Of a stretch of DNA of 64,000 bases, positions 12,468 to 50,993 are shown piece by piece; positions within the stretch are counted from its first letter, which is position 1; every line of letters begins with the position of its first letter. Where the stretch lies: NCBI GenBank assembly GCA_041666045.1, contig JBAYHR010000004.1, positions 4,996 through 68,995 of the forward strand. Direction: 5' to 3'. The notes below the pieces were generated by a model. It did not search any database. It had not been told where the DNA came from and saw nothing but the letters and a program-made list of their open reading frames with translations. The DNA is from Minisyncoccota bacterium (GTDB taxonomy: Bacteria; Patescibacteriota; Minisyncoccia; Phycocordibacterales; UBA9973). Position numbers and translations under genes: made by a program.

Positions 12468-12893
12468 ATGACAAGAAGAGAAAAAACAAAAAAACTAATA
12501 TTGATAATATTTTTACTAATAATTTGTTTAGTATTAATTTATATATATAGAACTCCTCAAAAGGAAAGTAAAAAAATAAATGAAATAAGCCCAACTGAAA
12601 CACAAGCAAAAACAATTACCCTTTTAATAAATGACACAAAATACGAAACAGATATAACTGAAAATAGCACAGTCTATAATCTTATGGATAAAATTAAAAC
12701 AGAAAGCAAAATAGATTTTAAAGAAAAAAATTATTCTGGAATGGGAAAATTTATTGAAGAAATAAACGGAGTAAAAAATGATGAAAAATATTGGATTTAT
12801 TATGTGAATGGAGAAAAAGCTACTATTGGTGTTTCAAAATATCAAATCAATTCTGGGGATGTCGTGTCCTGGAAATATGAGAACAGTTATTAA
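12468..12893 (+). CDS. DUF4430 domain protein (transcobalamin-like, B12-associated), membrane anchored
   Basis: C-terminal YWIYYVNGEKATIGVSKYQINSGDVVSWKY is the DUF4430 signature; N-terminal TM anchor. Confidence 0.7.
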   Translation: MTRREKTKKLILIIFLLIICLVLIYIYRTPQKESKKINEISPTETQAKTITLLINDTKYETDITENSTVYNLMDKIKTESKIDFKEKNYSGMGKFIEEINGVKNDEKYWIYYVNGEKATIGVSKYQINSGDVVSWKYENSY

Positions 12894-12922
12894 TAGTTAG
12901 TTAATAGTTATTAAAAAAATAT

Positions 12923-14716
12923 ATGAAAAATATAAAAGAAATTTTATTTATAACAGTTTTATTATTTGCTTCAATTACTTCAACAGCTTTTGCTGATACA
13001 ACAATTATTCTTGATATAGAAACAGATACTGGTTCTATTTATAATCAAAGCATAGACGTAGCTCCATGTGATAGTGATAATGATTCTATAACTCCAGATA
13101 CAACAAGTGCTTACTGTACATTAGTTCAATCAGGAATTGCAAGTGATTGGTCTGGATTATGGATAAATTCTATTAACAATGTTTTAAATAATGATGGTGG
13201 TAATGGTATTTATTGGATGTGGCTTGCAAATTTAAACATAGATAATCCCTATTCTGATTTTACTTGTCACCAAGATGCTCCATCTGGATGTTCAGCTAAA
13301 GAATACATTTTAAATTCTAATGACAAAATATTATTTTACTACAACACAAACCCATTAAATATTTTAATAGATAATTTAAATCCAACGGTTGGAGATACTA
13401 TAACAATAAGTATAAAAGAATTAGGGTTAGATGGATGGACTTCAGTTTGGAATCCTGCAGTTGGAGGAAAAGTAATTATTAATTCAAATACCTATGATCT
13501 TGATTCTAACGGAGCATATTCTTTTTTAATTTCTGATACTACTCCACTTGAAATAAAAGGACGAAAAGATGGTTTTATTGATACATCACTAATAAACATA
13601 ACCCCATCTCCCAAACCAGAACCTCCTCCAGAACCAGAACACCATAGTTCAAGTGGAAGTTATATTTCTCCAACTATTGTTAATATTCCCATAAAACCAA
13701 CTTTTGATATTAAAAAAGCTTTTGATTTTATTATATCACAGCAAAATGAAAACGGATCTTTTGGTGAAGATATTTATACAGATTGGACTGCACTTGCTCT
13801 TGCAACTGACACATTACATCAAGATCAAAAAAACAAAATTATAAAATATCTTTCAGAAAATAAATTAAACGGAGAAAATTTGACTGATTATGAAAGACAT
13901 TCTATGGCACTTATGGCTTTAGGATTAAATCCATATAGTCTAAACGGAGAAAATTATATTGAAAAAATTATTAAAAATTTTGATGGCATACAATTTGGTG
14001 ATTTAAATCAAGATAATGATGATATTTTTGCTTTGATAGTTCTACAAAATGCTGGATATACACGAGATGAAAAAATTATTACAGATACAATAAATTTTAT
14101 TATTTCTAAACAAAAAGAAAATGGGTCTTGGGATGAAAGTATAGATATGACTGGTGCAGGCATAGAAGCATTAGCGAATTTTAAAGAAAATGAACAAGTT
14201 AAAAATGCATTAACAAAAGCTAAAGAATATCTTAAACAAAACCAAAAAGAAAATGGCGGATGGACTAATGTTTCATCTACTGCATGGGCAATACAAGGAA
14301 TTTTAGCTCTTAGTGAAAAAATTGAAGATAAAACTTTAGAATATCTAGCTTTAAATCAAGACATAGATGGTGGAATCAAAAACGAAAATATGCAAAATAA
14401 AATCTGGCAAACAAGTTATGCTTTGACTTCCCTATCTGGAAAAACATGGAATCAAATAATGCAAAAATTTGATAAATTAGAAATTGAAGCTCCAAAAATA
14501 ATTCCAGAAAGAAATCTTGCTTCAAACATAAATTCTTCACACAAAACAGAATTTATTAAAAAAATATCCAAGTTCCAAAAACAAAAAATAAGTGAAAAAA
14601 ACATAGAAGAAACTGTAAAAATTGATGAAAATCAAACAAAAGAAATTGCACCAGAAATACCCAAAAAAGATAATTGGTTCAAAAGATTAATTAAAAAAAT
14701 TTTTAGTATTTTTTAG
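12923..14716 (+). CDS. Secreted protein with prenyltransferase/squalene-hopene-cyclase-like (alpha-alpha toroid) repeats
   Basis: Signal peptide; repeated QxxENGSW/GGW motifs (QQNENGSFGE, KQKENGSWDE, QKENGGWTN); commonly partnered with DUF4430. Confidence 0.55.
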   Translation: MKNIKEILFITVLLFASITSTAFADTTIILDIETDTGSIYNQSIDVAPCDSDNDSITPDTTSAYCTLVQSGIASDWSGLWINSINNVLNNDGGNGIYWMWLANLNIDNPYSDFTCHQDAPSGCSAKEYILNSNDKILFYYNTNPLNILIDNLNPTVGDTITISIKELGLDGWTSVWNPAVGGKVIINSNTYDLDSNGAYSFLISDTTPLEIKGRKDGFIDTSLINITPSPKPEPPPEPEHHSSSGSYISPTIVNIPIKPTFDIKKAFDFIISQQNENGSFGEDIYTDWTALALATDTLHQDQKNKIIKYLSENKLNGENLTDYERHSMALMALGLNPYSLNGENYIEKIIKNFDGIQFGDLNQDNDDIFALIVLQNAGYTRDEKIITDTINFIISKQKENGSWDESIDMTGAGIEALANFKENEQVKNALTKAKEYLKQNQKENGGWTNVSSTAWAIQGILALSEKIEDKTLEYLALNQDIDGGIKNENMQNKIWQTSYALTSLSGKTWNQIMQKFDKLEIEAPKIIPERNLASNINSSHKTEFIKKISKFQKQKISEKNIEETVKIDENQTKEIAPEIPKKDNWFKRLIKKIFSIF

Positions 14717-15327
14717 TTAATATAAAAAAATCCTAATATAACTGCAGTAAGATTAAGGGCTGCATGAGACCACGAAACTAAGAGTAAATTAGGATATTTT
14801 AAGTAGAGCCAAGCAAAGAAAATCCCTGACACAAAAGCAATTGGCAATCCTATCCCTAGGTTTGGATAAATTACATGAATTAATGTAAACAAAAGAGCAT
14901 TTACTAAAATAATAACGTAACTACTTGTAAAAATTTGTTTTAATTTTGGTATTAAAAAAGAACGAAAAGCAAATTCTTGAAAAAAAGAAACCGGCAAGAA
15001 AAATACGAAGGTTTTAATAAAAAAGATTTTTGTATCTATGTCTGGCATATTTATTTTATGATCAAGTAAAAAAAGAAATCCTATTCCAAGGATAGTAAAA
15101 AATAAATAAAAAAGAAAAGCTTTTTTAAAATTATCATGACGCAAACCCATTTCTTCGTGTGTCCAATGCTCATGACGAATAATCCCATAAATAAAAAGAG
15201 AGCTTATTGCAAGCAAAACCATACGCCAATTAGGAGATAATATATTAAAATAAAGCACCAAAACAGGTAAAACAAAAATTAAAAAAATCTGCGTTATTAT
15301 TAATCTTTTTGAAGGTTTATTTTCCAT
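14713..15327 (-). CDS. CPBP family intramembrane metalloprotease (CAAX protease-like)
   Basis: Polytopic; EExxxR-like (HEEMGLRH), FQEFAFRSF and HAALN motifs. Confidence 0.65.
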   Translation of the reverse strand: MENKPSKRLIITQIFLIFVLPVLVLYFNILSPNWRMVLLAISSLFIYGIIRHEHWTHEEMGLRHDNFKKAFLFYLFFTILGIGFLFLLDHKINMPDIDTKIFFIKTFVFFLPVSFFQEFAFRSFLIPKLKQIFTSSYVIILVNALLFTLIHVIYPNLGIGLPIAFVSGIFFAWLYLKYPNLLLVSWSHAALNLTAVILGFFYIN

Positions 15328-15344
15328 TGTTATTTATTTTAACA

Positions 15345-15380
15345 CAAAAACCCCGTCACTTGTAAGTGACGGGGTTTTTA
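15345..15380. terminator. Bidirectional rho-independent terminator
   Basis: ccccgtcact / agtgacgggg 10-bp GC-rich stem flanked by A- and T-runs. Confidence 0.8.
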
Positions 15381-15384
15381 AAAA

Positions 15385-15513
15385 TTATTCTTCTTTTGTT
15401 TTATGTGATTCATGATCACAACTTTCTCCTTCACATTTATGACCTTCATCTTTTTTACAGCAATCCTTTTCATCCTTTCCAGATCCACAATCACACTTTT
15501 TTTCTTCTTCCAT
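15385..15513 (-). CDS. Small Cys/His-rich acidic protein, possible metal-binding peptide (not in ORF track, below 60 aa)
   Basis: Manual translation gives MEEEKKCDCGSGKDEKDCCKKDEGHKCEGESCDHESHKTKEE (42 aa; 8 Cys, 3 His); ATG start and TAA stop; its own terminator immediately downstream. Confidence 0.45.
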   Translation of the reverse strand: MEEEKKCDCGSGKDEKDCCKKDEGHKCEGESCDHESHKTKEE

Positions 15514-15575
15514 AATTTAAATTCATAGATTAATTAATAATATATCTACGACTATTGCACCAATATTGTAGCATA

Positions 15576-16193
15576 TTATTTCTTTTTCCGCCATTCAACA
15601 TTTTTCCCAATATCACGCTCTATTTTATCAGCCAAACGCAATTTTTTAAAAACCTTTTTGGACGCAATATCATAATGTTTTATTTTATCCAACTCTTCAT
15701 CTATTCCCCACAAATCTTTTTCCTCAACTTCCCATCCTTTTTTAAAAATATTTAAATCAAGCGGTTTAGAATATTTACGTAAAGTCTTTACTCCATTATC
15801 CAAAAAATATTCATGAAAATATGACATCACAAGCTCACGTATATTTTTATAAACAGGCTCGCGATAACGCAAAACTCCATGATTTGTTTTAGATAAAGCC
15901 CCCCATAAACCATCTTCCTTAAATAAGTTGATTATGTGATCAAAGTCATGTTTAGTCGTCTTTAAATGCAAAATCAAAGGTTTATGACCATGTAATGAAA
16001 GGATATATGCTCCCAAAAGTGCCCCTTCCATACAATGTGCATTTTTATCTCTCAAAACCCTGATTGGTGACTTTAAAGTCCCAATTCCATCTTCCTCAAA
16101 ATTAAACTTCAAAGTATTCAAAAAATCCTGCACCTTCACTGGTGTATTTAATTTTTTCATTAAAGCTATTTCTTTTTTTGTGAAAGATAACAT
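15576..16193 (-). CDS. Hypothetical protein, possible transglutaminase-like/papain-fold cysteine peptidase
   Basis: NAHCMEGALLGAYIL ... H ... D arrangement suggests a Cys-His-Asp triad; weak. Confidence 0.35.
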   Translation of the reverse strand: MLSFTKKEIALMKKLNTPVKVQDFLNTLKFNFEEDGIGTLKSPIRVLRDKNAHCMEGALLGAYILSLHGHKPLILHLKTTKHDFDHIINLFKEDGLWGALSKTNHGVLRYREPVYKNIRELVMSYFHEYFLDNGVKTLRKYSKPLDLNIFKKGWEVEEKDLWGIDEELDKIKHYDIASKKVFKKLRLADKIERDIGKNVEWRKKK

Positions 16194-16199
16194 TAAAAA

Positions 16200-16661
16200 C
16201 TAATTTTCAAAACATTTATTCTCGCCACCAAATTTTAGACAATTTTTTAAAATTTTCATATTTGCTTCTTGATTAATAACCTTTTCATATAACATTATCT
16301 CATTATTGTCTTTTTCAAGACTAGACCTAATTAAATCTAAATATGAAAGAGCAACAGTAGCTAACATCACTAAAAAGACTATAAAACCTAAATAAACTAG
16401 ATTTTCTGTTTTTTCAATTCTTTTGACAGCCGTTTTAGTGTTTTCTTCAAGTGTAATAAAACTTTGAACTAGATTGTTTTTCTCTACCTCATCAGCAGAA
16501 GAAACAGGCCTAGAGACGCTTGTATCAATATTACCTGTGTTAGTATTAGTGGTAATACTAGCATTAGAAATATAAATAGATTGATCTAATGTATCAAATC
16601 TTTTTTTATAAAAGAAAACAACAGACAAAAACCAATTTTTAAATTTTTTCAACCAAGACAT
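16200..16661 (-). CDS. Hypothetical membrane protein
   Basis: One TM segment; ORF only. Confidence 0.35.
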   Translation of the reverse strand: MSWLKKFKNWFLSVVFFYKKRFDTLDQSIYISNASITTNTNTGNIDTSVSRPVSSADEVEKNNLVQSFITLEENTKTAVKRIEKTENLVYLGFIVFLVMLATVALSYLDLIRSSLEKDNNEIMLYEKVINQEANMKILKNCLKFGGENKCFEN

Positions 16662-17034
16662 AGTGTTTTTCTGAATCAGTTATTGATTCACCATCTACAG
16701 AAACTTTAATCCAATATTTACCAAATACTGGGAAAAGAATATTAATAAAACTACCAACAAAATTAGCTATACCTGTTTCTTTAAATTCTAATTTCTTTTC
16801 AACAAATGCAATCATTTTATTATTATCACTTAAATTAATAATTTCTATTTTTTGTATACAAGAGGTATTTGGAGAACCTATTGTACTTACAGCAACAGAA
16901 AACTGACTATGAACTGCTGGTGTACTTGTAGCTTGTATTTTTTCAAATACACCAATAAATGAACCTTTACCTTTTTGATCTATAAGTACCTGATCACAAA
17001 CTAACATATAATTTAATTTAATATCATTTCCCAT
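16639..17034 (-). CDS. Hypothetical protein
   Basis: ORF only. Confidence 0.35.
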   Translation of the reverse strand: MGNDIKLNYMLVCDQVLIDQKGKGSFIGVFEKIQATSTPAVHSQFSVAVSTIGSPNTSCIQKIEIINLSDNNKMIAFVEKKLEFKETGIANFVGSFINILFPVFGKYWIKVSVDGESITDSEKHYVLVEKI

Positions 17035-17038
17035 ATTT

Positions 17039-17320
17039 TTATTTTTTATCTCCTAAATCTTTTAAATCAGCCATTTGGATTGGGCTTTGTATTTGCGGTG
17101 GTGTCATGTCAATCACCCCAAATTGTTTTTCATAATTTTCTATTTGCTTATTCATCCAAATTGCTATACTTTTCATTGTTTGTGGTGTTGTTGCAAAAGA
17201 ATCCAAATTATTGCCAGAAGTTAAAGCAAAAGAAAAAAGTTCTTTGCCAAAAGCGCCAATTGCTCCATCGCAAAACTTCTTTGGTAATTGATTCATATCT
17301 ACTTTTGTTGGATCTATCAT
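17039..17320 (-). CDS. Hypothetical protein
   Basis: ORF only. Confidence 0.3.
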   Translation of the reverse strand: MIDPTKVDMNQLPKKFCDGAIGAFGKELFSFALTSGNNLDSFATTPQTMKSIAIWMNKQIENYEKQFGVIDMTPPQIQSPIQMADLKDLGDKK

Positions 17321-17448
17321 AGTTTTATATTATTTAAATTTATAATCTTATCGAGCCATTATAGCACACTTTTAGTAATTTTCAAAATCAAAAAACTCTT
17401 ATTTCTTATAAAAACTATCCTTGTAAATTATTTAAAATATATTTTATA

Positions 17449-18141
17449 CTATTCAATCTTGTCTGATTTTTGTAAATTATGTTTCATACAAAGTAATTTA
17501 ACATTACTTGAAGACAAGCTTGTTCCACCTTTTGAAAAAGGTAAATCATGATCAAAATGAAGATTTTTTGAATCACCACACAAAACACACTTTCCTTGAT
17601 CTCTTTTCCAAACTTCTCTTTTAACTTCTGAAGGTATTAATCTAGTATGTTCAAGTTTTATATTTTCTACGCCAGAATTTTCTTCTCGATTAGATAATTT
17701 TAAAATATACCTAAATACATTTCGTTTTCCATCATTAACAACTTTATAATCTATTAAATCAAAATATCCTTTTAACGACCAAGTTCCGGGTAATATTTTT
17801 TCGTAAACTTTAACTAACTCTGGTTTGTTATCTTTTTTATATTTATTAACAGCTTCAATAAAATATCCATTTTGTGTTAGTTTTCCACTTGGTAACTTTT
17901 CTGGTTGATCTTGTTCTTTAGAGTTTTCAGAATAATTTATTGCTAAATCATGACCTTCATATTCAATAGTTATTCTATCACTATGAATTTTATCAGAATA
18001 TGGAGCATTTGATTTTTGAGACATTAAAACAACAGAGTACAAAGGATTCATACGAAAATTCATTCCACGTTGCATAACCTCCTGATTTTCAGCCTCACAC
18101 ATTTCTCTATAGCTTAATATGTCATCTAAAATTTTTCTCAC
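17449..18141 (-). CDS. HNH endonuclease with N-terminal PUA/SRA-like domain (candidate modification-dependent restriction enzyme)
   Basis: C-terminal CVLCG...HFDHDLPFSKGG...N...C..HN HNH motif; N-terminal YSVVLMS...ITIEYEGHD resembles SRA/YDG-type modified-base readers. Confidence 0.6.
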   Translation of the reverse strand: MRKILDDILSYREMCEAENQEVMQRGMNFRMNPLYSVVLMSQKSNAPYSDKIHSDRITIEYEGHDLAINYSENSKEQDQPEKLPSGKLTQNGYFIEAVNKYKKDNKPELVKVYEKILPGTWSLKGYFDLIDYKVVNDGKRNVFRYILKLSNREENSGVENIKLEHTRLIPSEVKREVWKRDQGKCVLCGDSKNLHFDHDLPFSKGGTSLSSSNVKLLCMKHNLQKSDKIE

Positions 18142-18235: not shown

Positions 18236-18418
18236 TTATTTCATTGCTTCTGCGTCTACTTTTGACATAAACTTAAACATATTTCCTCCACAAACAGAAC
18301 ATTGTCCTTTTGCAGAATATCTTCCATTTTTTTCTTCTACTTTTGGATCCTTCATCACTTGCATGGTTGGCTTATTTTCTGCACTTCTACACTTCATACA
18401 CAATGCTTTTAATTCCAT
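18236..18418 (-). CDS. Small zinc-ribbon protein (CxxC...CxxC)
   Basis: 60 aa with CMKC and CSVCGG pairs. Confidence 0.5.
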   Translation of the reverse strand: MELKALCMKCRSAENKPTMQVMKDPKVEEKNGRYSAKGQCSVCGGNMFKFMSKVDAEAMK

Positions 18419-18463: not shown

Positions 18464-18859
18464 TTATTCTGTTGTCTTACCGTCAAAATGCTCAGCTTCA
18501 TCTGCCTCTGCGTCAGCTTTAGTATTATGAACAACTCCATCACGATGATTCGCTGGAGCATAAACTGTGTAAAGTTTCATTTTTGTTGCTCCTGTATTTA
18601 TAATATTGTGTTCTGTCCCAGCTGGAACCAAAATAGCAAAACCATCTGAAATATCATGAGACACTCCATCAAGCACTGCTTTACCTTCCCCACTTTCAAC
18701 TCTCAAAAATTGATCAAGATGATGCACTTCAGCACCGATCTCTTCACCAACATTTAAACTCATTAAAACCAATTGGCAATTTTTCGCAGTATAAAGAACT
18801 TTTCTAAAAAGCTCATTATCTAAACTCAACTTCTCAATATTTTCTACAAATCCTTTCAT
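18464..18859 (-). CDS. Cupin domain protein
   Basis: Cupin_2-like core (GAEVHHLDQFLRVESGEG ... AILVPAGTEHNI). Confidence 0.65.
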   Translation of the reverse strand: MKGFVENIEKLSLDNELFRKVLYTAKNCQLVLMSLNVGEEIGAEVHHLDQFLRVESGEGKAVLDGVSHDISDGFAILVPAGTEHNIINTGATKMKLYTVYAPANHRDGVVHNTKADAEADEAEHFDGKTTE

Positions 18860-18908
18860 AATTTTTTAAAGTTAGTTAATAATACTTACTAAGTATAGTA
18901 TACATCAT

Positions 18909-19244
18909 TTAAACTTCTTTTACTTTAATCTCTTTCGGAAAACTATTTAAAGCTTTTGTAGTGGCGCGGATAGAAAATATCACAAATGGTAAAAAGAAAA
19001 AAGAAGGTATCATAATAAGCCAAAATAGAAATTTAACTATTCCATAAGGCCCTGCGATAAGTGATGTATAACCAAAAATAAAAGTTATTATAAGCAATAA
19101 AAGGTTTATAATAAATATAGTTATAGCTGAACCTCTAACCTCTTTAATAAGAAATTTACTACCAAAACTTTTTGGGTCACGAGAAGCTTCTTTTGCGTCT
19201 TTTATTAAAGACGGTATCATAAAAATTTTAAAGATAAGCATCAA
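18909..19244 (-). CDS. Hypothetical membrane protein
   Basis: Three TM helices; ORF only. Confidence 0.4.
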   Translation of the reverse strand: MMLIFKIFMIPSLIKDAKEASRDPKSFGSKFLIKEVRGSAITIFIINLLLLIITFIFGYTSLIAGPYGIVKFLFWLIMIPSFFFLPFVIFSIRATTKALNSFPKEIKVKEV

Positions 19245-19818
19245 GTTGTTTTTGTTTTTTATAAAACCTAGCTACAACTAAAATAGTCATAAGAGCAATA
19301 AAAGTAATAAGAGATAACATAGGAAAAGAAATATATCCGCCAAATTCATCTACAAGTCTCTGCACACAAGACACTCCTGATGGATCACAAGATTCTGTGT
19401 TAGCTTGAAAGTAATAAATAAAATTCTGATAAATGGCAACAAAAAAACCAGTAATTAAAAGCGGAAAAGAATAATGCGCTACTTTCCTATCTTTTTTAAT
19501 ATATGCCATTCCAAAAAGAACTACTTGAGAAAATAAAAATATTCTTTGGAACCAACATAATTTGCAAGGCAAAAATCCTATAATTTCAGAATAAATTAAA
19601 GAAAATGCCATCGCAAAAAAAGAAATTATAAAACCAATAATTAAAAAATGCTCTTTAATGAAAGAAAGAAATTTATTTTCTTTAGGACCAAAAAATAAAA
19701 AGATAATAGCAAGCACAGATAAAAACTGTAAAATTATTGAGAAAATTCCAAGTGTAAAATTTAAATAACTTATATAAGTAGGCATAATTATTGTGGTATT
19801 TCTGGTGGTAAAACACAA
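19228..19818 (-). CDS. dsbB: Disulfide bond formation protein B (DsbB/BdbC family)
   Basis: Four TM helices; LPCKLCWFQR CxxC in the first periplasmic loop; second Cys pair CDPSGVSC. Confidence 0.6.
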   Translation of the reverse strand: MCFTTRNTTIIMPTYISYLNFTLGIFSIILQFLSVLAIIFLFFGPKENKFLSFIKEHFLIIGFIISFFAMAFSLIYSEIIGFLPCKLCWFQRIFLFSQVVLFGMAYIKKDRKVAHYSFPLLITGFFVAIYQNFIYYFQANTESCDPSGVSCVQRLVDEFGGYISFPMLSLITFIALMTILVVARFYKKQKQLDAYL

Positions 19819-20180
19819 CCAGTTTTTTCTGCAAGCGTGACTAAAGGAATTTCTCCACTTAAGCGCGTATCATCAGCAAATATCCAAGTTGGATAACCTT
19901 TTATATCTTTTTCTTTGCAAATTTGTGTTTGTTCTTGCGCATCTGGAGTTGAACATTCAACATAAGAAAGTAATTTTTCCGATGAACCGAAAAGCTCTTT
20001 TTGCGCTTTGCAATGTGTACACCAAAAAGCGCCATAAAAAACAGCTCCTTTATCTTTTAAACAAATTGCAAAACTGTCATATTTACTAGATGTTTTTGGT
20101 GCAGAATTTTTAGAAACAATAGTTATAATTGAACCTAAAACCAAAATAATAATTATACTAAAAAAGATTTTTATTTTCAT
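19788..20180 (-). CDS. Thioredoxin-fold thiol-disulfide oxidoreductase (DsbA/BdbD-like), membrane anchored
   Basis: N-terminal TM; FWCTHCKAQ CxxC active site. Confidence 0.6.
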   Translation of the reverse strand: MKIKIFFSIIIILVLGSIITIVSKNSAPKTSSKYDSFAICLKDKGAVFYGAFWCTHCKAQKELFGSSEKLLSYVECSTPDAQEQTQICKEKDIKGYPTWIFADDTRLSGEIPLVTLAEKTGCVLPPEIPQ

Positions 20181-20215
20181 ATACTAAATATAACATAAAT
20201 ATTATTAATAATAAA

Positions 20216-20641
20216 TTATATAAATTCTATCTCAAAAGGATACATACCCATTCCACAAGTGCCCTCAAATGTGCCTACTTTTTGTATTCCTATATCAATA
20301 TCTGTTGTACCAGACATTGGTAAATTTTTAGTTAAATTCATACTAGGAATTCTAAGAATAGAAGAACAATCAAAAGTACCATTGGTGTTAACTCTTAATA
20401 TTGTAGGAATACCAGCTTTCGCAGTACTTTTTATTGGGAAAAATCCACCCTTAGCTTTAACTTCAACAATTTGTTTACCATCTACAATAAAAACATTATT
20501 CACATTCTGCTCTTCTATCACCTTTTTTCCTTTAGGAGAAGAAGATGAAAAGTAAATTGCTCCGCCAACAATTAACCCTGCAACTATAATAGAAATTATT
20601 ATTGACGTATTTGAATTATTTATTTGTTTTGTTTTACTCAT
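20216..20641 (-). CDS. Hypothetical exported/membrane-anchored protein, possibly metal-binding
   Basis: N-terminal TM; Cys/Met-containing C-terminus (TCGMGMYP); located in the copper cluster; start probably at the second Met because the first 10 codons are encoded by a repeat copy. Confidence 0.35.
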   Translation of the reverse strand: MSKTKQINNSNTSIIISIIVAGLIVGGAIYFSSSSPKGKKVIEEQNVNNVFIVDGKQIVEVKAKGGFFPIKSTAKAGIPTILRVNTNGTFDCSSILRIPSMNLTKNLPMSGTTDIDIGIQKVGTFEGTCGMGMYPFEIEFI

Positions 20642-20674
20642 TGATTTTACGAAATCACGTCGCGCAACCATCAG
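20641..20674. repeat. GC-rich repeat, family A copy 3 (GATTTTACGAAATCACGTCGCGCAACCATC)
   Basis: About 85% identical to the copies at 43276-43310 and 43347-43381. Confidence 0.6.
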
Positions 20675-20689
20675 ATTAGCGAAACGCGG

Positions 20690-21745
20690 TTAAAAATTAA
20701 AAATTGGAGGTAAAATATTTATTACAACCAATGCATTAATAAGATTAAAAATTGCAAATAATATTACGACTAATCCGGCTGTCTTAAAGAAAATTCCAGA
20801 CTTTGAACTTTTTTGAATACTGAATGAACTGAAAGAAAGAAGCGCAAGTACTGGGAATGTTCCTAATGCAAATGATAACATAGTGAATGCTCCTTGTGAA
20901 AAATTACCAGTGGAAAGTGTAAAGATCTGCATTGATTGAGTAAAACCACAAGGTAAGAAAAAAGTGGCAACACCCACTAACGCTGGAGTAAGCGTATGAT
21001 TTAGTTTTGAAACACCCATAGCATGCTTGGAAATAAATTTTGGCATTCCAGGTTGAAGTTTTTTTGCCCAATGAAAAATATCAAGCAAATTAATTCCTAA
21101 AATTAACATCACTATCGCAATAATAAAACCTAATATAAATGTCCCAATTGAGCCAAGTTGAAAAGCAGATCCAATAGCGCCAATCACTCCTCCTAAAATA
21201 AAGAAAGAAACTAGTCTACTAATATGGAACATCGCATGTGGTTTTATTTTGCCTGCCCCGTAGGAAGTACTCTTTCCTTCGGGGTCTCCTTCGCGCGCAA
21301 ATGTCGCAGACATAGAAAGCACAAGTCCTCCTACTACAGCCATACAAGAAGAAAGCGATGCAATAATTCCTATAATAAAAGCCGTACCATAAGAAATATT
21401 ATCTGTCGCAATTAAATTTACTAATCCAATTTTTTGTAAAAAAACATAAAACACTACAAAAAAAATCGTTATAGGTATAGCAATTTTAAATTCACTCCAT
21501 TTCACTTCTTTTTTATGTTTATCTACTGCAAGAGTATAACCGTGTTTTACTAAAACTGTATTTAATTCTGTGGCAATATCTTCTGGTAATCTATCTCCGA
21601 AATCTCCAACTACTTCAACTAAATTAGAATTTAAGCTTGCTTTAACTTTTGAAATAAAAGGAAATTCTTTTAATTCACTTTCCGTCATTAATTCACATGA
21701 TTTACAATGCATTCCTTTAATATGAAATTTGTATGTTTTTTCCAT
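20690..21745 (-). CDS. HMA-domain fused to CcdA/DsbD-like polytopic membrane protein
   Basis: N-terminal GMHCKSC heavy-metal-associated motif; conserved Cys residues in separate TM helices (LSSCMAV, FLPCGF). Confidence 0.55.
   Translation of the reverse strand: MEKTYKFHIKGMHCKSCELMTESELKEFPFISKVKASLNSNLVEVVGDFGDRLPEDIATELNTVLVKHGYTLAVDKHKKEVKWSEFKIAIPITIFFVVFYVFLQKIGLVNLIATDNISYGTAFIIGIIASLSSCMAVVGGLVLSMSATFAREGDPEGKSTSYGAGKIKPHAMFHISRLVSFFILGGVIGAIGSAFQLGSIGTFILGFIIAIVMLILGINLLDIFHWAKKLQPGMPKFISKHAMGVSKLNHTLTPALVGVATFFLPCGFTQSMQIFTLSTGNFSQGAFTMLSFALGTFPVLALLSFSSFSIQKSSKSGIFFKTAGLVVILFAIFNLINALVVINILPPIFNF
21256..21284. repeat. GC-rich palindromic element, family B (CCCCGTAGGAAG...CTTCCTTCGGGG), in frame inside a CDS
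   Basis: Imperfect 11-bp inverted arms; near-identical copy at 57307-57335; encodes the loop peptide DPEGKSTSYGAG in the CcdA-like protein. Confidence 0.55.
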
Positions 21746-21750
21746 AAATT

Positions 21751-24084
21751 TTATAATTTCTTTGCCTTAATTCTTAATGAATTTGAAACGACCGATACAC
21801 TAGATAATGCCATGGCCATCCCTGCAAAAATTGGATTAAGTAGCCAACCAAATATTGGATAAAAAATCCCTGTTGCAAGTGGAATACCTATAACGTTGTA
21901 GAAAAATGCCCAAAAAAGATTCTGTCTTATTCCACGCATAGTAATTTTAGACAATTTTATAGCTTTAGCAAGTTTTGAAATGTCTCCGTATAAAAGCGTA
22001 ATTCCTGCAGATTCTATCGCTACATCTGTGCCTGTGCCCATTGCTATACCTACATCAGCTTGTGCAAGCGCTGGAGCATCATTTACGCCATCTCCAGCCA
22101 TAGCGACAATCTTACCTTCTGCTTGTAAAGACTTAATAGTATCTAATTTATCTTCTGGCATTACCTCGGCTAATACTTCATCAATGCCAACTTGTTTTGC
22201 AATATATTCTGCTGTTTGTTTATTATCTCCTGTAAGCATTATAATTTTAACTCCAAGCTTGTGAAGTTCAGCAACTGCCTGCATTGATTCTTTTTTTATA
22301 GAATCTGCAATCATAATAAAACCAAGAACTTTTTCCTTCGTCATTAAAACAACTGGCGTCTTTCCTTCCAATGTAAATTTATCTAATTGCGCTGTATCAA
22401 AAGAAATTTTTAAATCATTTATCAATCCAACACTACCAATAAAATATTCTGTATTATTTATTAATCCTTTTAACCCTCTTCCTTTTATGCTTTCAAAATT
22501 GGAAACTTCTTTTAGTTGAATTTTCTTTTCTTTAGAATAATTTAATATTGCATGAGCAATCGGATGTTCTGATTTATTTTCCAAAGACGCAAGAATAGAA
22601 ATCTGATCTACATCTAAATTTTGTATATCAATAAGTTCTGGTTTACCTTTTGTTATTGTTCCTGTTTTATCTACTACTACAACATTTACCTTATGAAGTT
22701 TTTCCAATGTTGCAGCGTCTTTTATTAAAATTCCTTCTTTTGCTCCTTTACCAACTCCCACAATAATAGCAGTTGGTGTAGCAAGTCCAAGCGCACAAGG
22801 ACAAGCTATCACAAGAACACTAACAAACGAAACAAGACCTAAAGACAAAGCGCTAGATAAGCCAAGCGTGCTTGAACCAAGAAATATCCACAAACCTAAT
22901 GACAAAAATGAAATAACTAAAACAATCGGTACAAAAATTCCTGAAATTTTATCCGCTAATGCTTGAATCGGTGCTTTACTACCTTGCGCTTCTTCAACCA
23001 TTTTTATTATATGTGCAAGCAAAGTCTCAAATCCTACTTTCGTAGCTTTAAAATTAAATGACCCGCTAGTATTTATCGTCCCTGCGGAAACTGTATCATT
23101 TATTTCTTTATGAACTGGCATAGGCTCTCCAGTTATCATTGATTCATCTATATACGAACTCCCTTCCACTACTACTCCATCGACAGCTATCTTAGACCCT
23201 GGTTTAACGACAATAATATCTCCGTGTACAACTTCATTTACAGAAATTTCAACTTCTTGTCCACCTCTTACAACCAAAGCTGTCTTTGCTTGCAAATTTG
23301 AAAGTTGTTCTATAGCATCTCCTGTTTTTAATTTTGATTTAGCTTCTAAATATTTTCCTAAAGTTATAAAAGCAATGACGATAATAGTAATATCAAAATA
23401 AGTTTGATCTACATTTAAAAAATCCTGAAGTTGCGTAGAAAAAAAGGTAATTATCATACTGTATAAGTATGCGACTGAAGTTCCTATTCCTATCAACGTA
23501 TCCATATTTGCTCTACCATAACGCAAAAATCTATACACCCCTAAAAGATATGGCTTACCTACAAAGAACAACATATATGTAGCCATAACTGGCAACATAT
23601 AAACAAAAAGTTTTTTAATTAAAATAGATGGCTCAGATACTAATTCATATTTCATTAAAATATCCCAAACCATTACAAAAAGACTAATTATTGCAAGTGG
23701 TATTGCAGACATTACTTTTAATTTCATACTATTTATTTCAGCAAGTTTATCTTTTTTATTTTGACCTATTCCTGTATGCGCCTTATGTTCATCTTCACTC
23801 ATCCCCATCCCGTTAGAGGCAGAGGGTCGCTGCGAGCCCTCGCGGCCTCTAACGGGACCCATACTCTCTGCAGTCTCAGTAATTAAAGAATACCCTAAGT
23901 GTTCTATGTTTTTAGAAAGATTCTCCACATTAATTTTATTTTCATCAAAAGATAATTTTGCAGATTCATTCCCATAATTCACTTCAGCCGAAATTACTCC
24001 ATCTATTTTCTTAAATGTCTTTTCTATTATTCCTGCGCATGAAGCACAATGCATTCCTTTTATTTTGTAAATATTTTTTATCAT
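21751..24084 (-). CDS. copA: Copper-translocating P1B-type ATPase CopA
   Basis: N-terminal HMA GMHCASCAG; CPC motif; DKTGT; GDGVNDAP; 777 aa. Confidence 0.9.
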   Translation of the reverse strand: MIKNIYKIKGMHCASCAGIIEKTFKKIDGVISAEVNYGNESAKLSFDENKINVENLSKNIEHLGYSLITETAESMGPVRGREGSQRPSASNGMGMSEDEHKAHTGIGQNKKDKLAEINSMKLKVMSAIPLAIISLFVMVWDILMKYELVSEPSILIKKLFVYMLPVMATYMLFFVGKPYLLGVYRFLRYGRANMDTLIGIGTSVAYLYSMIITFFSTQLQDFLNVDQTYFDITIIVIAFITLGKYLEAKSKLKTGDAIEQLSNLQAKTALVVRGGQEVEISVNEVVHGDIIVVKPGSKIAVDGVVVEGSSYIDESMITGEPMPVHKEINDTVSAGTINTSGSFNFKATKVGFETLLAHIIKMVEEAQGSKAPIQALADKISGIFVPIVLVISFLSLGLWIFLGSSTLGLSSALSLGLVSFVSVLVIACPCALGLATPTAIIVGVGKGAKEGILIKDAATLEKLHKVNVVVVDKTGTITKGKPELIDIQNLDVDQISILASLENKSEHPIAHAILNYSKEKKIQLKEVSNFESIKGRGLKGLINNTEYFIGSVGLINDLKISFDTAQLDKFTLEGKTPVVLMTKEKVLGFIMIADSIKKESMQAVAELHKLGVKIIMLTGDNKQTAEYIAKQVGIDEVLAEVMPEDKLDTIKSLQAEGKIVAMAGDGVNDAPALAQADVGIAMGTGTDVAIESAGITLLYGDISKLAKAIKLSKITMRGIRQNLFWAFFYNVIGIPLATGIFYPIFGWLLNPIFAGMAMALSSVSVVSNSLRIKAKKL
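23809..23856. mobile_element. 48-bp GC-rich palindromic mini-element inserted in frame in copA (CCCGTTAGAGGC...GCCTCTAACGGG)
   Basis: About 70% GC in a 30% GC gene; 12-bp terminal inverted repeat related to the MITE family TIR; flanked by CCCCAT/ACCCAT (ATGGGK on the coding strand); encodes PVRGREGSQRPSASNG in the HMA-TM1 linker. Confidence 0.6.
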
Positions 24085-36140: not shown

Positions 36141-36169
36141 TCACAAATTCCTTTCTGCTTCAATAAACA
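36141..36169 (-). repeat. 29-bp direct repeat TCACAAATTCCTTTCTGCTTCAATAAACA (copy at RT 3' end)
   Basis: Identical to 39904-39932 at the prfB 3' end; encodes FIEAERNL plus TGA on the minus strand. Confidence 0.85.
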
Positions 36170-37163
36170 TACTAAGTTTATACCCATTCCCATGCCCCAG
36201 CATCCCCAAATACGAAGCAATGGTATTAGGTTTTTGATTATTCTTTAAATTCCTAAACATCCTTTTCTTTGTGCTATTTCGTAATACTCTGTGTTTAGGA
36301 AAATGTACCCAGCCTAAGAAATCCACACCTGAATAAATAGTTTTAATAAAAACTTTATCTGGATGCATAGTTAATTTTAATTCATTTTCTAAAAACTCTT
36401 TCATTTGTTCTAAAATATTTTCCAAATAATTTTTGTCTTGCGATAATATAACAAAATCATCAGCGTATCTTATATAATATTTCACTTTCAATTTATGTTT
36501 TACAAATTGATCAAATTCATTCATATAGATATTTACAAGGAGTTGAGAAGTTAAATTACCCAAAGGCAAACCTTTTGAAAGTGACACAAACTCTGCCATG
36601 GCAGAGTTTGTGTCACTTGTATAAAAACTATCTATAATATTATCTAAAAGCCAAATGATATCTTTATCTTTTATAAATTTTACTAAAATACTTTTTAAAA
36701 TATTATGATCAATACTCGCAAAGAATTTTTTAATATCACATTTTAAAACCCAACAGGTTTTTGAATTATTTTTACTAACTTTGCGAAAATAATCCCTAAA
36801 CTTATTCATTCCCTTATGAGTACCTTTCCATTTACGGCAAGAATATGAATCACTGATAAATTTTGAATCAAAGAAAAAATACATTTTTTGATAAAGAGCG
36901 TGATGCAATATCCTGTCACAAACAATGGCTTTATGTATATCACGAGGTTTTGGATCAGAAATTTTAAAAGCATAATATCCTGAATGTTTATAATTTTTTG
37001 TTTTTAAATCATTGTGAAGTTTTAATAAATTTTCCATTAAATTTCTTTGCCAAATTTGAACATCTTTTTTATTTGATTTTTCGCTCCTAAAATTTTTCCA
37101 CGCCAAAAGTAAATTTTCCAAAGATATGATATCATTGTAACTATGAATAAAAGTTTTTATCAT
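36141..37163 (-). CDS. Diversity-generating retroelement reverse transcriptase
   Basis: RT motifs including YIRYADDFVIL (YxDD) and the DGR-specific LGxxxSQ (LPLGNLTSQ); 340 aa; the last 8 codons are shared with prfB. Confidence 0.85.
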   Translation of the reverse strand: MIKTFIHSYNDIISLENLLLAWKNFRSEKSNKKDVQIWQRNLMENLLKLHNDLKTKNYKHSGYYAFKISDPKPRDIHKAIVCDRILHHALYQKMYFFFDSKFISDSYSCRKWKGTHKGMNKFRDYFRKVSKNNSKTCWVLKCDIKKFFASIDHNILKSILVKFIKDKDIIWLLDNIIDSFYTSDTNSAMAEFVSLSKGLPLGNLTSQLLVNIYMNEFDQFVKHKLKVKYYIRYADDFVILSQDKNYLENILEQMKEFLENELKLTMHPDKVFIKTIYSGVDFLGWVHFPKHRVLRNSTKKRMFRNLKNNQKPNTIASYLGMLGHGNGYKLSMFIEAERNL

Positions 37164-50360: not shown

Positions 50361-50993
50361 TTAAATAAATCCAAATTCACGGAAAACTTGCTCATATAAA
50401 GCAACTACCCTTTTTGCTTCCCTACTTGTAAGTTCAAATTGTAAACCTTCATGCGCTATTCTGTTTCTTACAATATGGGCTTCCCAAGCATCATCAACAC
50501 TGCGAAACCTATCTCTATCAATCATTTTTAATTTTTCTCCCAGATTCTCTCCCTTATATCCAAGTTGATCCAGCAACGCTTCAAGCATAGAATCTGCTTC
50601 TATTATTGCAACTTTCCAATCAGCTGAATTTTCTGAAAAAAGATGATCTAATACTCCTTCCCATCTTTTATTTTTTTGTCCTTCTCCTTTATTCATCAAT
50701 GCCTTTTCTTTTTCAGCTTGCTTTTGTGCGTATAATGCAATTTGTTGATGTAAAAATTCTTTTTCTTTTTTTCTTATTTCAAATATGCGAATAGCGCAAT
50801 AAATAATTATAATAAGAAAAAATAATGCAAGAAAAAAAAGTATAAATTTTAAAATACCTACAAATTCAGCATTAAAAAGATTACGAAAAAAATTAAGAAT
50901 TTGATTGAATAAATATTCCAAATTCAAAAAAGTTGGATCAAAAAGTTTATTTTGAGTAGCTGTATTTAAATTTAATGATTGTGATAAATCCAT
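50361..50993 (-). CDS. Membrane-anchored HEPN-like (DUF4145-type) protein
   Basis: N-terminal TM; C-terminal helical domain with RNRIAHE (Rx4H HEPN motif). Confidence 0.45.
   Translation of the reverse strand: MDLSQSLNLNTATQNKLFDPTFLNLEYLFNQILNFFRNLFNAEFVGILKFILFFLALFFLIIIIYCAIRIFEIRKKEKEFLHQQIALYAQKQAEKEKALMNKGEGQKNKRWEGVLDHLFSENSADWKVAIIEADSMLEALLDQLGYKGENLGEKLKMIDRDRFRSVDDAWEAHIVRNRIAHEGLQFELTSREAKRVVALYEQVFREFGFI

What the first reader, a model, noticed from the sequence alone, without database searches (positions are those of the whole stretch)
15385..15513. Unannotated 42-aa Cys/His-rich acidic ORF with its own strong terminator (possible metallothionein-like or metal-buffering peptide)
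It is below the 60-aa ORF threshold but has a clean ATG...TAA frame encoding MEEEKKCDCGSGKDEKDCCKKDEGHKCEGESCDHESHKTKEE. There are 8 Cys in 42 residues arranged as CxC, CC, C..C pairs, plus His, in a Lys/Glu/Asp matrix. A perfect 10-bp GC-rich terminator follows immediately. Small proteins of this kind are systematically missed in annotation.
Basis: seen in the sequence. Interest (0 to 1): 0.5.

Follow-up and report, generated by a model that had tools for sequence, protein, structure and literature searches.

The report
Stand-alone SecA-type metal-binding mini-protein gene
The 42-codon reading frame is a real, selected gene of a small group of Paceibacterota (CPR) bacteria, and it encodes a free-standing copy of the metal-binding knuckle known from the tail of SecA plus a second Cys/His site; this is a modest new variant of a known motif, not a classical metallothionein.

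Summary
The ORF exists on the minus strand at 15385-15513. It has 6 Cys and 3 His, not 8 Cys. Public records already annotate it as a hypothetical protein of a Candidatus Paceibacterota MAG.

It is a genuine coding gene. Nine distinct orthologues sit at the same site, between a conserved 205-aa gene and a CPBP/Rce1-like protease gene. dN/dS is 0.05-0.07 for the closest pairs and below 1 in all 36 pairs. Synonymous divergence equals that of the flanking genes. No other frame is both open and constrained.

An extended -10 promoter (TGCTAnnnT) and a strong terminator hairpin (-24.9 kcal/mol, four covarying pairs) are conserved around it.

The invariant core C7-x-C9-G-S11-G-x3-K-x-C18-C19 is a SEC-C motif, the SecA-like metal-binding domain:
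- Two orthologues pass Pfam's threshold for it.
- All eight PDB hits of the family profile are SEC-C proteins.

A second site, H25-x-C27-x4-C32-x-H34, becomes CxC-x4-CxC in four orthologues. This His-to-Cys swap is typical of metal ligands.

The gene is confined to one shallow clade and appears lost in two nested lineages. Metal binding is inferred, not shown, and the physiological role is unknown.

The parts
15385..15513 (-). Coding sequence of the 42-aa acidic Cys/His micro-protein (MEEEKKCDCGSGKDEKDCCKKDEGHKCEGESCDHESHKTKEE)
   Evidence: ORF and translation. Nine orthologues at the same site. dN/dS 0.05-0.07 for the closest pairs and below 1 in all 36 pairs. It is the only frame that is both open in all orthologues and constrained.
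15457..15495 (-). Site 1: SEC-C-type motif C7-D-C9-G-S11-G-K-D-E-K-D-C18-C19 (CxC-x8-CC with the conserved Ser)
   Evidence: C7, C9, S11, C18 and C19 are invariant in 9 sequences. Identity to E. coli SecA 885-896 is 8/12. Orthologues P0125 and P0126 pass the Pfam SEC-C gathering score. All 8 PDB hits of the family profile are SEC-C proteins.
15412..15441 (-). Site 2: H25-K-C27-E-G-E-S-C32-D-H34 (Cys2His2 here, CxC-x4-CxC in four orthologues); H37 follows at 15403-15405
   Evidence: Alignment. H25 and H34 are replaced by Cys in P0124, P0126, P0127 and P0128. The whole site is absent in P0125.
15565..15573 (-). Candidate extended -10 promoter element TGCTACAAT, 2 nt after the stop codon of the upstream 205-aa gene and about 50 nt before the ATG
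   Evidence: TGCTA...T is invariant in 8 orthologous upstream regions (sequences). This is a consensus match only; no transcript data exist.
15346..15379 (-). Intrinsic terminator hairpin (A5-CCCCGTCAC-loop-GTGACGGGG-T5), bidirectional in shape
   Evidence: 16-nt arms, 100% complementary. Folding energy -24.9 kcal/mol, z = -6.07. 12 consensus pairs, 4 of them with compensatory changes; the one non-pairing cell (G-A at the innermost pair) is not clearly a real break in this alignment, 8 orthologues. Unique in the window.
15336..15344 (-). Extended -10-like element TGTTAAAAT of the downstream CPBP gene, 8 nt before its ATG (15327). It marks the downstream border of the small-gene unit.
   Evidence: Conserved as TGTTAnnAT after the terminator in the orthologues. 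In relatives without the peptide gene it lies directly after the 205-aa gene's stop codon.

Best explanation
Window 15385-15513 (minus strand) is a self-contained monocistronic gene: an extended -10 promoter, an untranslated leader of about 40 nt without a Shine-Dalgarno sequence (as for nearly all genes here), a 42-codon ORF and an intrinsic terminator.

It encodes a cytoplasmic, very acidic micro-protein that is probably disordered until metal-bound, with two four-ligand metal sites.
- Site 1 (C7, C9, C18, C19, with S11) is a free-standing SEC-C / SecA-type metal-binding knuckle. By homology it should bind one Zn(II) or Fe(II).
- Site 2 (H25, C27, C32, H34; all-Cys in some orthologues) should bind a second ion.

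I commit to this working model: the peptide folds around two divalent metal ions and acts as a small, dispensable holder or buffer of Zn/Fe, or as a metal-dependent interaction module. It is functionally metallothionein-like at most, and evolutionarily a SEC-C derivative.

Shown here: the gene is real, selected and vertically inherited; it has a SEC-C-like core; and the pattern of ligand conservation.

Inferred: metal binding, stoichiometry, which metal, and the physiological role.

The gene arose once, between the 205-aa gene and the CPBP gene, at the base of a shallow Paceibacterota clade. It appears lost again in two nested lineages.
For: Coding:
- Nine distinct orthologues, all between the 205-aa gene and the CPBP gene.
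- dN/dS is 0.07 (window vs L095) and 0.05 (window vs L090), and below 1 in all 36 pairs.
- 12 of 17 differences are at third codon positions (p = 0.002); synonymous excess p = 5e-6.
- The peptide's dS (0.85-1.10) matches the flanking genes' dS (0.77-1.80).
- Other frames are either interrupted by stops or have dN/dS of about 1-3.

SEC-C identity:
- C7, C9, S11, C18 and C19 are invariant.
- P0125 and P0126 score 21.2 and 24.6 bits against the Pfam SEC-C cut-off of 20.4.
- The family profile against the PDB gives 8 hits, all SEC-C proteins: YchJ-C 9l6b (E = 0.0011), SecA metal-binding domains 1ozb, 1sx0, 1tm6, 3iqy and 1tf2, plus 2jq5 and 2i9w.
- All six NCBIfam matches are weak; the two with informative names are a YchJ family model and a SWIM/SEC-C model, and the window peptide matches the C-terminal end of PRK05590, the model that 8 of 9 members hit.
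- Identity to E. coli SecA 885-896 is 8/12.
- The ligand roles of Cys885, Cys887, Cys896 and His897, and the role of Ser889, come from 10.1101/613315.

Ligand behaviour: H25 and H34 become Cys in four orthologues.

Expression signals: conserved TGCTAnnnT; terminator with 4 covarying pairs.

Context: a metal/thiol gene cluster lies 3-9 kb upstream on the same strand, and is almost adjacent in relative L084.
Against: - There is no experimental evidence for transcription, translation or metal binding.
- The window peptide on its own hits neither Pfam SEC-C nor any PDB chain. The assignment rests on its orthologues and the family profile.
- The aromatic residue conserved in SecA-like domains (Tyr893) is Glu, Ala or Thr here. 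The peptide is acidic where SecA's domain is basic.
- The AlphaFold model is of low confidence (mean pLDDT 58).
- One orthologue lacks site 2 entirely (P0125).
- Two nested lineages lack the gene, so it is dispensable.
- No metal-sensing regulator is adjacent. The link to the metal gene cluster is proximity only, and a variable island lies in between.
Confidence: 0.7

Rival explanations
1. A true metallothionein. The 6-8 Cys (plus His) would form a shared metal-thiolate cluster that binds three or more Zn/Cd/Cu ions, and the peptide would serve in heavy-metal detoxification together with the nearby P-type ATPase cluster.
For: - The peptide is small, has no aromatic or hydrophobic residues, and carries CxC and CC motifs.
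- All-Cys orthologues have 8 Cys in 46-48 aa.
- Ligand number and type evolve quickly.
- The gene is dispensable.
- A heavy-metal ATPase, HMA-DsbD_2 and cupredoxin cluster lies 3-9 kb away.
Against: - No match to the bacterial metallothionein Pfam model in any member.
- Cys content is only 14-17%.
- The N-terminal four Cys are a SEC-C knuckle, which in SecA and YchJ binds a single ion.
- One orthologue keeps only that single site (P0125).
- No SmtB/ArsR-type regulator is nearby.
- A variable restriction-enzyme island separates it from the metal cluster.
Confidence: 0.15
2. A RiPP or bacteriocin-type precursor (for example SCIFF/ranthipeptide-like, 'six cysteines in forty-five residues') that is processed by, or whose producer is protected by, the adjacent CPBP intramembrane protease.
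For: Six Cys in 42 residues, and immediate adjacency to a CPBP/Rce1-like gene. From established knowledge, that protein family is often linked to peptide processing or bacteriocin immunity.
Against: - No hit to the SCIFF model or any RiPP family in NCBIfam.
- No radical-SAM or other maturase gene nearby.
- No leader/core organisation and no hydrophobic segment.
- The CPBP gene and the 205-aa gene are adjacent in many relatives that lack the peptide, so the protease is not dedicated to it.
- A terminator and a separate promoter lie between the two genes.
Confidence: 0.04
3. A leader peptide with a transcription attenuator (Cys- or metal-responsive) that controls the downstream CPBP gene.
For: The layout is a short ORF, then a terminator hairpin, then a gene. 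The stop codon lies only about 10 nt before the stem. Rfam gives weak sub-threshold similarity to leader models, driven by the hairpin.
Against: - The CPBP gene has its own conserved TGTTAnnAT element downstream of the terminator. The same element serves it in relatives without the small ORF.
- No alternative antiterminator fold appears.
- The whole peptide is under purifying selection, not just a run of regulatory codons.
- All Rfam scores are far below the gathering thresholds.
Confidence: 0.03
4. Not a protein gene: a chance ORF in a purine-rich spacer or small-RNA gene, or the real product is the antisense 49-aa ORF (15366-15515, plus strand).
For: The sense strand is 71-74% purine, so several frames lack stops. 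The antisense frame is open in all 8 orthologues.
Against: - Sense-frame dN/dS is 0.05-0.2, with third-position bias.
- The open antisense frame has dN/dS of 0.9-2.8.
- The other low-dN/dS antisense frame carries stop codons in several orthologues.
- The SEC-C motif is highly specific.
- No Rfam family reaches its threshold.
Confidence: 0.03

Closest known systems
SEC-C motif / SecA-like metal-binding domain (Pfam PF02810; C-terminal 22 residues of SecA, PDB 1sx0/1sx1, 1tm6, 1ozb)
   Same: It has the same ligand spacing, CxC-x8-C[C/H]. The same Gly-Ser-Gly follows the second Cys, including the Ser that tunes iron preference in SecA, and the same Lys sits two residues before the third ligand. 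Identity to E. coli SecA 885-896 is 8/12. Two orthologues pass Pfam's threshold, and the family profile finds only SEC-C chains in the PDB.
   Different: It is free-standing (42-48 aa) rather than the tail of a large protein. It is acidic rather than basic, so SecB-type binding is unlikely. The conserved aromatic residue (Tyr893) is replaced by Glu, Ala or Thr. A second Cys/His site is appended. The window peptide itself is below Pfam's threshold.
YchJ (UPF0225) and YecA, E. coli/Salmonella proteins with SecA-like metal-binding domains
   Same: YchJ-C (9l6b) is the best PDB hit. All six NCBIfam matches are weak; the two with informative names are a YchJ family model and a SWIM/SEC-C model. These domains copurify with iron (10.1101/613315). 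In YchJ the N-terminal CxC...CC binds Zn, while the C-terminal Cys act as a redox switch (PMC13377102).
   Different: Those proteins carry the motif on a folded domain of 150-220 aa with DNA-binding or chaperone roles. Here nothing but the motif and a second site is present.
Bacterial metallothioneins (SmtA/BmtA, Pfam PF02069; MymT)
   Same: Small size, Cys and His ligands, no aromatic residues, a plausible metal-holding role, and rapid change in ligand set.
   Different: There is no sequence similarity. Cys content is lower. The ligands are arranged as two separate four-ligand sites rather than a Zn4Cys9His2 cluster around a zinc-finger-like fold. No metal-responsive repressor gene is adjacent.
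One-domain zinc-finger micro-proteins of prokaryotes (e.g. Haloferax volcanii C(P)XCG proteins, PMC11241148)
   Same: Proteins under 70 aa that consist essentially of Cys-based metal knuckles and are encoded as independent genes.
   Different: The motif differs (two CPxCG pairs there, against CxC-x8-CC plus [H/C]xC-x4-Cx[H/C] here). The phylum differs, and there is no detectable homology.
Desulforedoxin / rubredoxin-type FeCys4 mini-proteins
   Same: From established knowledge, desulforedoxin (36 aa) binds Fe with four Cys that include an adjacent Cys-Cys pair. Site 1 here also ends in CC, and SEC-C domains bind iron in vivo.
   Different: The first pair is CxxC in desulforedoxin and CxC here. 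There is no sequence similarity, no hydrophobic core residues and no dimer-forming strands. This is an analogy only and was not tested.

Membership tests
SEC-C motif / SecA-like metal-binding domain (PF02810) | Four metal ligands spaced CxC-x8-C[C/H] | tested here: met
   C7, C9, C18 and C19; invariant in 9 orthologues.
SEC-C motif / SecA-like metal-binding domain (PF02810) | Nearly invariant Ser two residues after the second Cys (SecA Ser889), within G-S-G | tested here: met
   S11 is invariant. The role of Ser889 comes from 10.1101/613315.
SEC-C motif / SecA-like metal-binding domain (PF02810) | Conserved aromatic residue four positions after the Ser (SecA Tyr893) | tested here: not met
   This position is E15 in the window peptide and Glu, Ala or Thr in the orthologues.
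SEC-C motif / SecA-like metal-binding domain (PF02810) | Score at or above Pfam's gathering threshold (20.4 bits) | tested here: inconclusive
   The window peptide has no hit even at E <= 10. Orthologues P0125 (21.2 bits) and P0126 (24.6 bits) pass. The family profile hits only SEC-C chains in the PDB (E = 0.001-0.085).
SEC-C motif / SecA-like metal-binding domain (PF02810) | Binds one Zn(II)/Fe(II) ion | not testable with these tools
   This needs the peptide and metal titration. The AlphaFold model is of low confidence (pLDDT 58).
SEC-C motif / SecA-like metal-binding domain (PF02810) | Basic surface used to bind SecB or ribosomes; located at a protein terminus | tested here: not met
   The peptide has 15 acidic residues against 9 Lys and is free-standing.
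Bacterial metallothionein (SmtA/BmtA, PF02069) | Sequence match to the family model | tested here: not met
   No hit for any of 8 members at E <= 10.
Metallothionein in the broad sense | Low molecular weight, high Cys content (about 15-30%), no aromatic residues, metal-thiolate clusters | tested here: inconclusive
   42 aa, 14% Cys (17% in the all-Cys orthologues), no aromatic residues. Cluster formation is not testable here.
SCIFF / ranthipeptide precursor (TIGR03973) | Match to the family model and an adjacent radical-SAM maturase gene | tested here: not met
   No NCBIfam hit. Neighbouring genes are a CPBP protease, the 205-aa protein, DUF6941 and an HNH protein, with no radical-SAM enzyme.
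Leader-peptide transcription attenuator | Terminator placed between the promoter and the regulated gene, with an alternative antiterminator fold | tested here: not met
   The conserved promoter-like element of the CPBP gene lies after the terminator, also in relatives without the ORF. Only one stable fold is predicted.

The most novel reading that the evidence does not exclude
A recently born, clade-restricted micro-protein made of nothing but two metal knuckles. The SEC-C unit would have been captured or re-created next to a duplicated promoter. The protein would work as a minimal iron (rubredoxin/desulforedoxin-like FeCys4) or zinc-thiolate redox module in an organism with a very reduced genome. 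Examples of such a role are a tiny electron or thiol-redox carrier, or a metal donor, for the neighbouring thiol/metal machinery or peptidases. It would be one of the smallest natural two-site metalloproteins and a traceable case of gene birth and loss in CPR bacteria.
Probability: 0.12. Interest if true: 0.6.

Novelty: new variant of a known kind. Interest (0 to 1): 0.38.

Why it matters
The SEC-C motif is known almost only as an appendage of larger proteins such as SecA, YecA and YchJ. Here the motif, plus a second Cys/His site, is the whole protein. It is under purifying selection, has its own promoter and terminator, and is found in one shallow clade of ultra-small CPR bacteria.

This gives a natural minimal model of 42-48 residues for asking three questions: which metal SecA-like knuckles prefer, what the conserved Ser and the missing aromatic residue do, and how micro-proteins are gained and lost.

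It also has a practical lesson. Single-sequence searches, including an exhaustive one, found nothing. The family and its identity emerged only by following the conserved neighbouring genes. The finding does not change any major concept.

Tried and rejected
- **Single-sequence homology searches.** The word-index search and the exhaustive phmmer search over 1.84 billion representatives returned only the peptide itself. Pfam, NCBIfam and PDB searches with the single peptide returned nothing useful.
- **Screen of 80 species-level relatives.** I looked for small Cys-rich ORFs near the 205-aa gene and found none. This first suggested an orphan insertion. It was revised when closer metagenomic relatives turned out to carry orthologues.
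- **Viral contigs.** No relatives.
- **Second site alone against the PDB.** No hits.
- **AlphaFold2 with a 7-sequence alignment.** Mean pLDDT was 58, so no fold search was run.
- **Rfam.** Only sub-threshold hits, all driven by the terminator hairpin.
- **Repeats or mobile-element ends around the unit.** None were found, and the hairpin is unique in the window.
- **PADLOC defence models.** No hits for the peptide or its immediate neighbours. Only the 230-aa HNH protein resembles a type II restriction enzyme.
- **Promoter/terminator tool scan.** It missed the hairpin because the stem runs into the A/T tracts.
- **Literature.** I found no description of free-standing SEC-C micro-proteins or of CPR metallothioneins.
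- **Rejected readings.** Chance ORF, antisense ORF, leader-peptide attenuator, and SCIFF/RiPP precursor; the reasons are given under the rival explanations.

Full report
**1. What is in the sequence**

The quoted peptide is encoded on the minus strand, ATG at 15513 to TAA at 15385-15387. It is 42 residues long.

- It has 10 Glu, 9 Lys, 5 Asp, 6 Cys (positions 7, 9, 18, 19, 27, 32) and 3 His (25, 34, 37).
- It has no hydrophobic or aromatic residue apart from Met1.
The third 'pair' is C-x4-C.

Ten nucleotides after the stop codon starts a perfect inverted repeat. It has 16-nt arms at 15346-15361 and 15364-15379. The core is ACCCCGTCAC/GTGACGGGGT, flanked by A5 and T5. It folds at -24.9 kcal/mol, with z = -6.07 against shuffles. 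The consensus scan missed it because the stem runs into the A/T tracts.

The window is 30% G+C. Its proteins are recorded in NCBI for a Candidatus Paceibacterota (CPR/Patescibacteria) MAG. The ORF is already annotated there as hypothetical protein WC264_02130, and three other pipelines also called it. It is therefore not 'unannotated'.

**2. Is the open frame meaningful?**

On its own it is not. The sense strand is 74% purine, so stop codons are rare in several frames. The antisense frame that contains the 49-aa plus-strand ORF (15366-15515) is stop-free in the window and in every full-length orthologue.

Single-sequence homology searches also gave nothing:
- The word-index search of 5.8 billion proteins found only the peptide itself.
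- The exhaustive phmmer search of 1.84 billion representatives found only the peptide itself.
- Pfam, NCBIfam and PDB searches found nothing useful.

**3. Finding relatives through the neighbours**

The gene upstream on the same strand (15576-16193, 205 aa) is very widespread in Paceibacteria, with 7095 hits.

In 80 species-level relatives it is often followed directly by the same CPBP/Rce1-like gene that follows the small ORF in the window (14713-15327). The gaps there are only 0-60 nt, and no small Cys-rich ORF is present. The same holds for two relatives that are among the closest by the 205-aa protein (L084: 89% identity, 20-nt gap; L087: 88%, 6-nt gap).

Other close relatives do carry an orthologue in exactly this position:
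- P0122 in L090 (48 aa)
- L094/L096 = P0123 (42 aa)
- L095 (cut by the contig end)
- L098 = P0125 (45 aa)
- L099 = P0124 (47 aa)
- P0126, P0127 and P0128, found with a profile search. P0126 and P0128 have the same flanking genes on their short contigs; P0127's 289-nt contig is too short to show its neighbours.

This makes nine distinct sequences.

**4. Coding evidence**

- In codon alignments, window vs L095 gives 7.5 synonymous and 4.5 non-synonymous differences (dN/dS 0.07).
- Window vs L090 gives 11 and 6 (dN/dS 0.05).
- All 36 pairs have dN/dS below 1.
- Differences concentrate at third codon positions: 12 of 17 (p = 0.002) and 9 of 12 (p = 0.004).
- The synonymous excess has p = 5e-6.

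The always-open antisense frame has dN/dS of 0.9-2.8. The only other frame with low dN/dS is the one that shares wobble positions with the sense frame, and it carries stop codons in several orthologues.

The peptide's synonymous divergence from the window (0.85-1.10) matches that of the two flanking genes in the same genome pairs (0.77-1.80). Its dN/dS is in the same range as theirs (0.07-0.24). The gene has therefore co-diverged with its neighbours and has not been moving horizontally.

A neighbour-joining tree of the two flanking proteins puts all peptide-bearing lineages in one clade. The two empty lineages, L084 and L087, are nested inside it (no bootstrap). The simplest reading is one gain and two losses. 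This is an inference.

**5. Expression signals**

This organism almost lacks Shine-Dalgarno sequences: 2 of 48 long ORFs have one. Many genes have a TGTTATAAT-like extended -10 element 6-10 nt before the ATG.

Upstream of the peptide gene, TGCTAnnnT is invariant in eight orthologues. In the window it reads TGCTACAAT at 15565-15573, 2 nt after the stop codon of the 205-aa gene. A block AGTCG a few bases further on is also invariant.

The terminator is conserved as a structure, not as a sequence. Four of the 12 consensus pairs show compensatory changes, and only one cell (a G-A at the innermost pair) fails to pair.

Directly after the T-run lies TGTTAAAAT (15336-15344), 8 nt before the CPBP start codon. 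The same element follows the 205-aa gene's stop codon in relatives that lack the peptide gene.

The small gene is thus an independent unit slotted between the 205-aa gene and the CPBP promoter. This argues against a leader-peptide or attenuator role. Rfam gives only sub-threshold, hairpin-driven matches. The hairpin is unique in the window.

**6. What the protein is**

Across the nine sequences C7, C9, S11, C18 and C19 are invariant. The core reads C-x-C-[GS]-S-[GD]-x3-[KE]-[DN]-C-C. This is the SEC-C motif, the SecA-like metal-binding domain.

- Orthologues P0125 and P0126 score 21.2 and 24.6 bits against Pfam PF02810, whose cut-off is 20.4.
- A profile of the family finds eight chains in the PDB, every one a SEC-C protein: YchJ C-terminal peptide 9l6b (E = 0.0011); SecA metal-binding domains 1ozb, 1sx0/1sx1, 1tm6, 3iqy and 1tf2/1tf5; and 2jq5 and 2i9w.
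- All six NCBIfam matches are weak; the two with informative names are a YchJ family model and a SWIM/SEC-C model, and the window peptide aligns to the C-terminal end of PRK05590, the model that 8 of 9 members hit.
- The window peptide is 8/12 identical to E. coli SecA residues 885-896.

In SecA, Cys885, Cys887, Cys896 and His897 bind the metal. Ser889 is nearly invariant and shifts the preference towards iron. Tyr893 is a conserved aromatic residue (10.1101/613315).

Here all four ligand positions and the Ser are kept. The aromatic position is Glu, Ala or Thr, and the peptide is strongly acidic rather than basic.

**7. The second site**

Residues H25-x-C27-x4-C32-x-H34 are conserved in the window-like sequences. 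They read C-K-C-E-G-E-x-C-x-C in P0124, P0126, P0127 and P0128. Exchange of His for Cys at exactly two positions, with C27 and C32 kept in all eight sequences that have the site, is what is expected of metal ligands.

P0125 lacks this half altogether, so site 1 is the indispensable part. Site 2 alone has no detectable relative in the PDB. AlphaFold2 gives a low-confidence model (mean pLDDT 58, highest around residues 11-20). This is compatible with a peptide that folds only around metal, but it proves nothing.

**8. Mechanism and rivals**

Best-supported reading: a cytoplasmic micro-protein that binds two divalent ions in two separate four-ligand sites. By homology these are Zn(II) or Fe(II), since SEC-C domains copurify with iron. 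Site 1 is SEC-C type.

Its physiological role is open. It could be a metal-dependent interaction module, as in SecA and YecA. It could also be a thiol/redox switch, as reported for YchJ (PMC13377102).

The gene lies on the same strand as a metal/thiol cluster at 18464-24084. That cluster comprises a P-type ATPase with an HMA domain, HMA-DsbD_2, a cupredoxin, a thioredoxin, DsbB and a cupin. In relative L084 only two genes separate this cluster from the 205-aa gene, which precedes the site the peptide gene occupies in other lineages (L084 itself lacks the peptide gene). This is proximity only.

A true cluster-forming metallothionein is less likely. There is no family match, Cys content is low, the sites are discrete, one orthologue has a single site, and no metal-sensing regulator is nearby.

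A RiPP precursor is unlikely. There is no maturase and no SCIFF match, and the CPBP gene is conserved without the peptide.

The attenuator, chance-ORF and antisense-ORF readings are rejected for the reasons given above.

**9. Novelty**

The motif is well known. The free-standing, acidic, two-site form, restricted to one shallow CPR clade, has no Pfam or NCBIfam family of its own. I found no description of it in the searchable literature. No relatives occur on viral contigs.

I rate it a new variant of a known kind, of moderate interest. It is a clean example of a real, selected micro-protein gene that single-sequence searches cannot place, and a natural minimal model for SecA-type metal sites.

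Noticed in passing
window 16200-18141 (minus strand); compare L084, L087, L094/L096, L099: The stretch between the DUF5679 gene (18236-18418) and the 205-aa gene is a variable island. The window has an HNH/type II restriction-enzyme-like 230-aa protein (PADLOC REase_II, E = 4e-6), a 93-aa protein, DUF6941 and a 153-aa protein. L087 has DpnI plus three small genes. L094/L096 have a NYN-domain protein, L099 a SWIB protein, and L084 nothing.
   Followed up: partly
whole window: Only 2 of 48 long ORFs have a Shine-Dalgarno-like motif. Many have a TGTTATAAT-like extended -10 element 6-10 nt before the ATG, which suggests that leaderless mRNAs are common in this organism.
   Followed up: partly
window 18464-24084 (minus strand): A metal/thiol gene cluster: a P-type ATPase with an HMA domain (777 aa), an HMA-DsbD_2 membrane protein, a cupredoxin-like protein, a thioredoxin-like protein, DsbB, a 111-aa protein and a cupin. 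The order is conserved in relatives L084 and L089.
   Followed up: partly
window 15576-16193 (minus strand): The conserved 205-aa neighbour has weak similarity to vasohibin (PF14822, 14.7 bits, below threshold; several homologues carry precomputed hits). Vasohibin is a transglutaminase-like Cys peptidase that trims acidic C-terminal tails. Seven of the eight complete peptide sequences end in -KEE (P0126 ends in -KAE). The protein occurs in thousands of genomes without the peptide, so this may be coincidence.
   Followed up: no
window 12468-14716 (plus strand): A DUF4430 protein and a 597-aa secreted protein lie convergent with the CPBP gene. The 597-aa protein has squalene-cyclase/TED/cobalamin-binding-like repeats. 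The 205-aa, CPBP and 597-aa genes form a trio that recurs in many Paceibacteria.
   Followed up: partly
window upstream of 50361-50993 and of 59407-59964 (minus strand): An identical 22-nt sequence (AAGATTTCCTATTTCTAACGGG) immediately precedes the start codons of two different ORFs. This suggests a duplicated gene start or a repeated regulatory element.
   Followed up: no
window just upstream of 37163 (minus strand ORF 36141-37163): A run of nine G directly precedes this ORF in a 30% G+C genome. It may be a slippage-prone tract.
   Followed up: no
window 44476-48009 (minus strand): A 1177-aa protein with AAA_11/AAA_12 helicase domains and a C-terminal REase_MTES_1575 endonuclease domain.
   Followed up: no
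window 15336-15344 and 15565-15573; L084 3128-3147: The peptide gene is bracketed by two similar extended -10-like elements (ATATGCTACAAT and GTGTTAAAAT). Lineages without the gene have a single element there (AATATGTTAAAAT). This is compatible with gain by promoter duplication and with loss by recombination between the two copies.
   Followed up: partly
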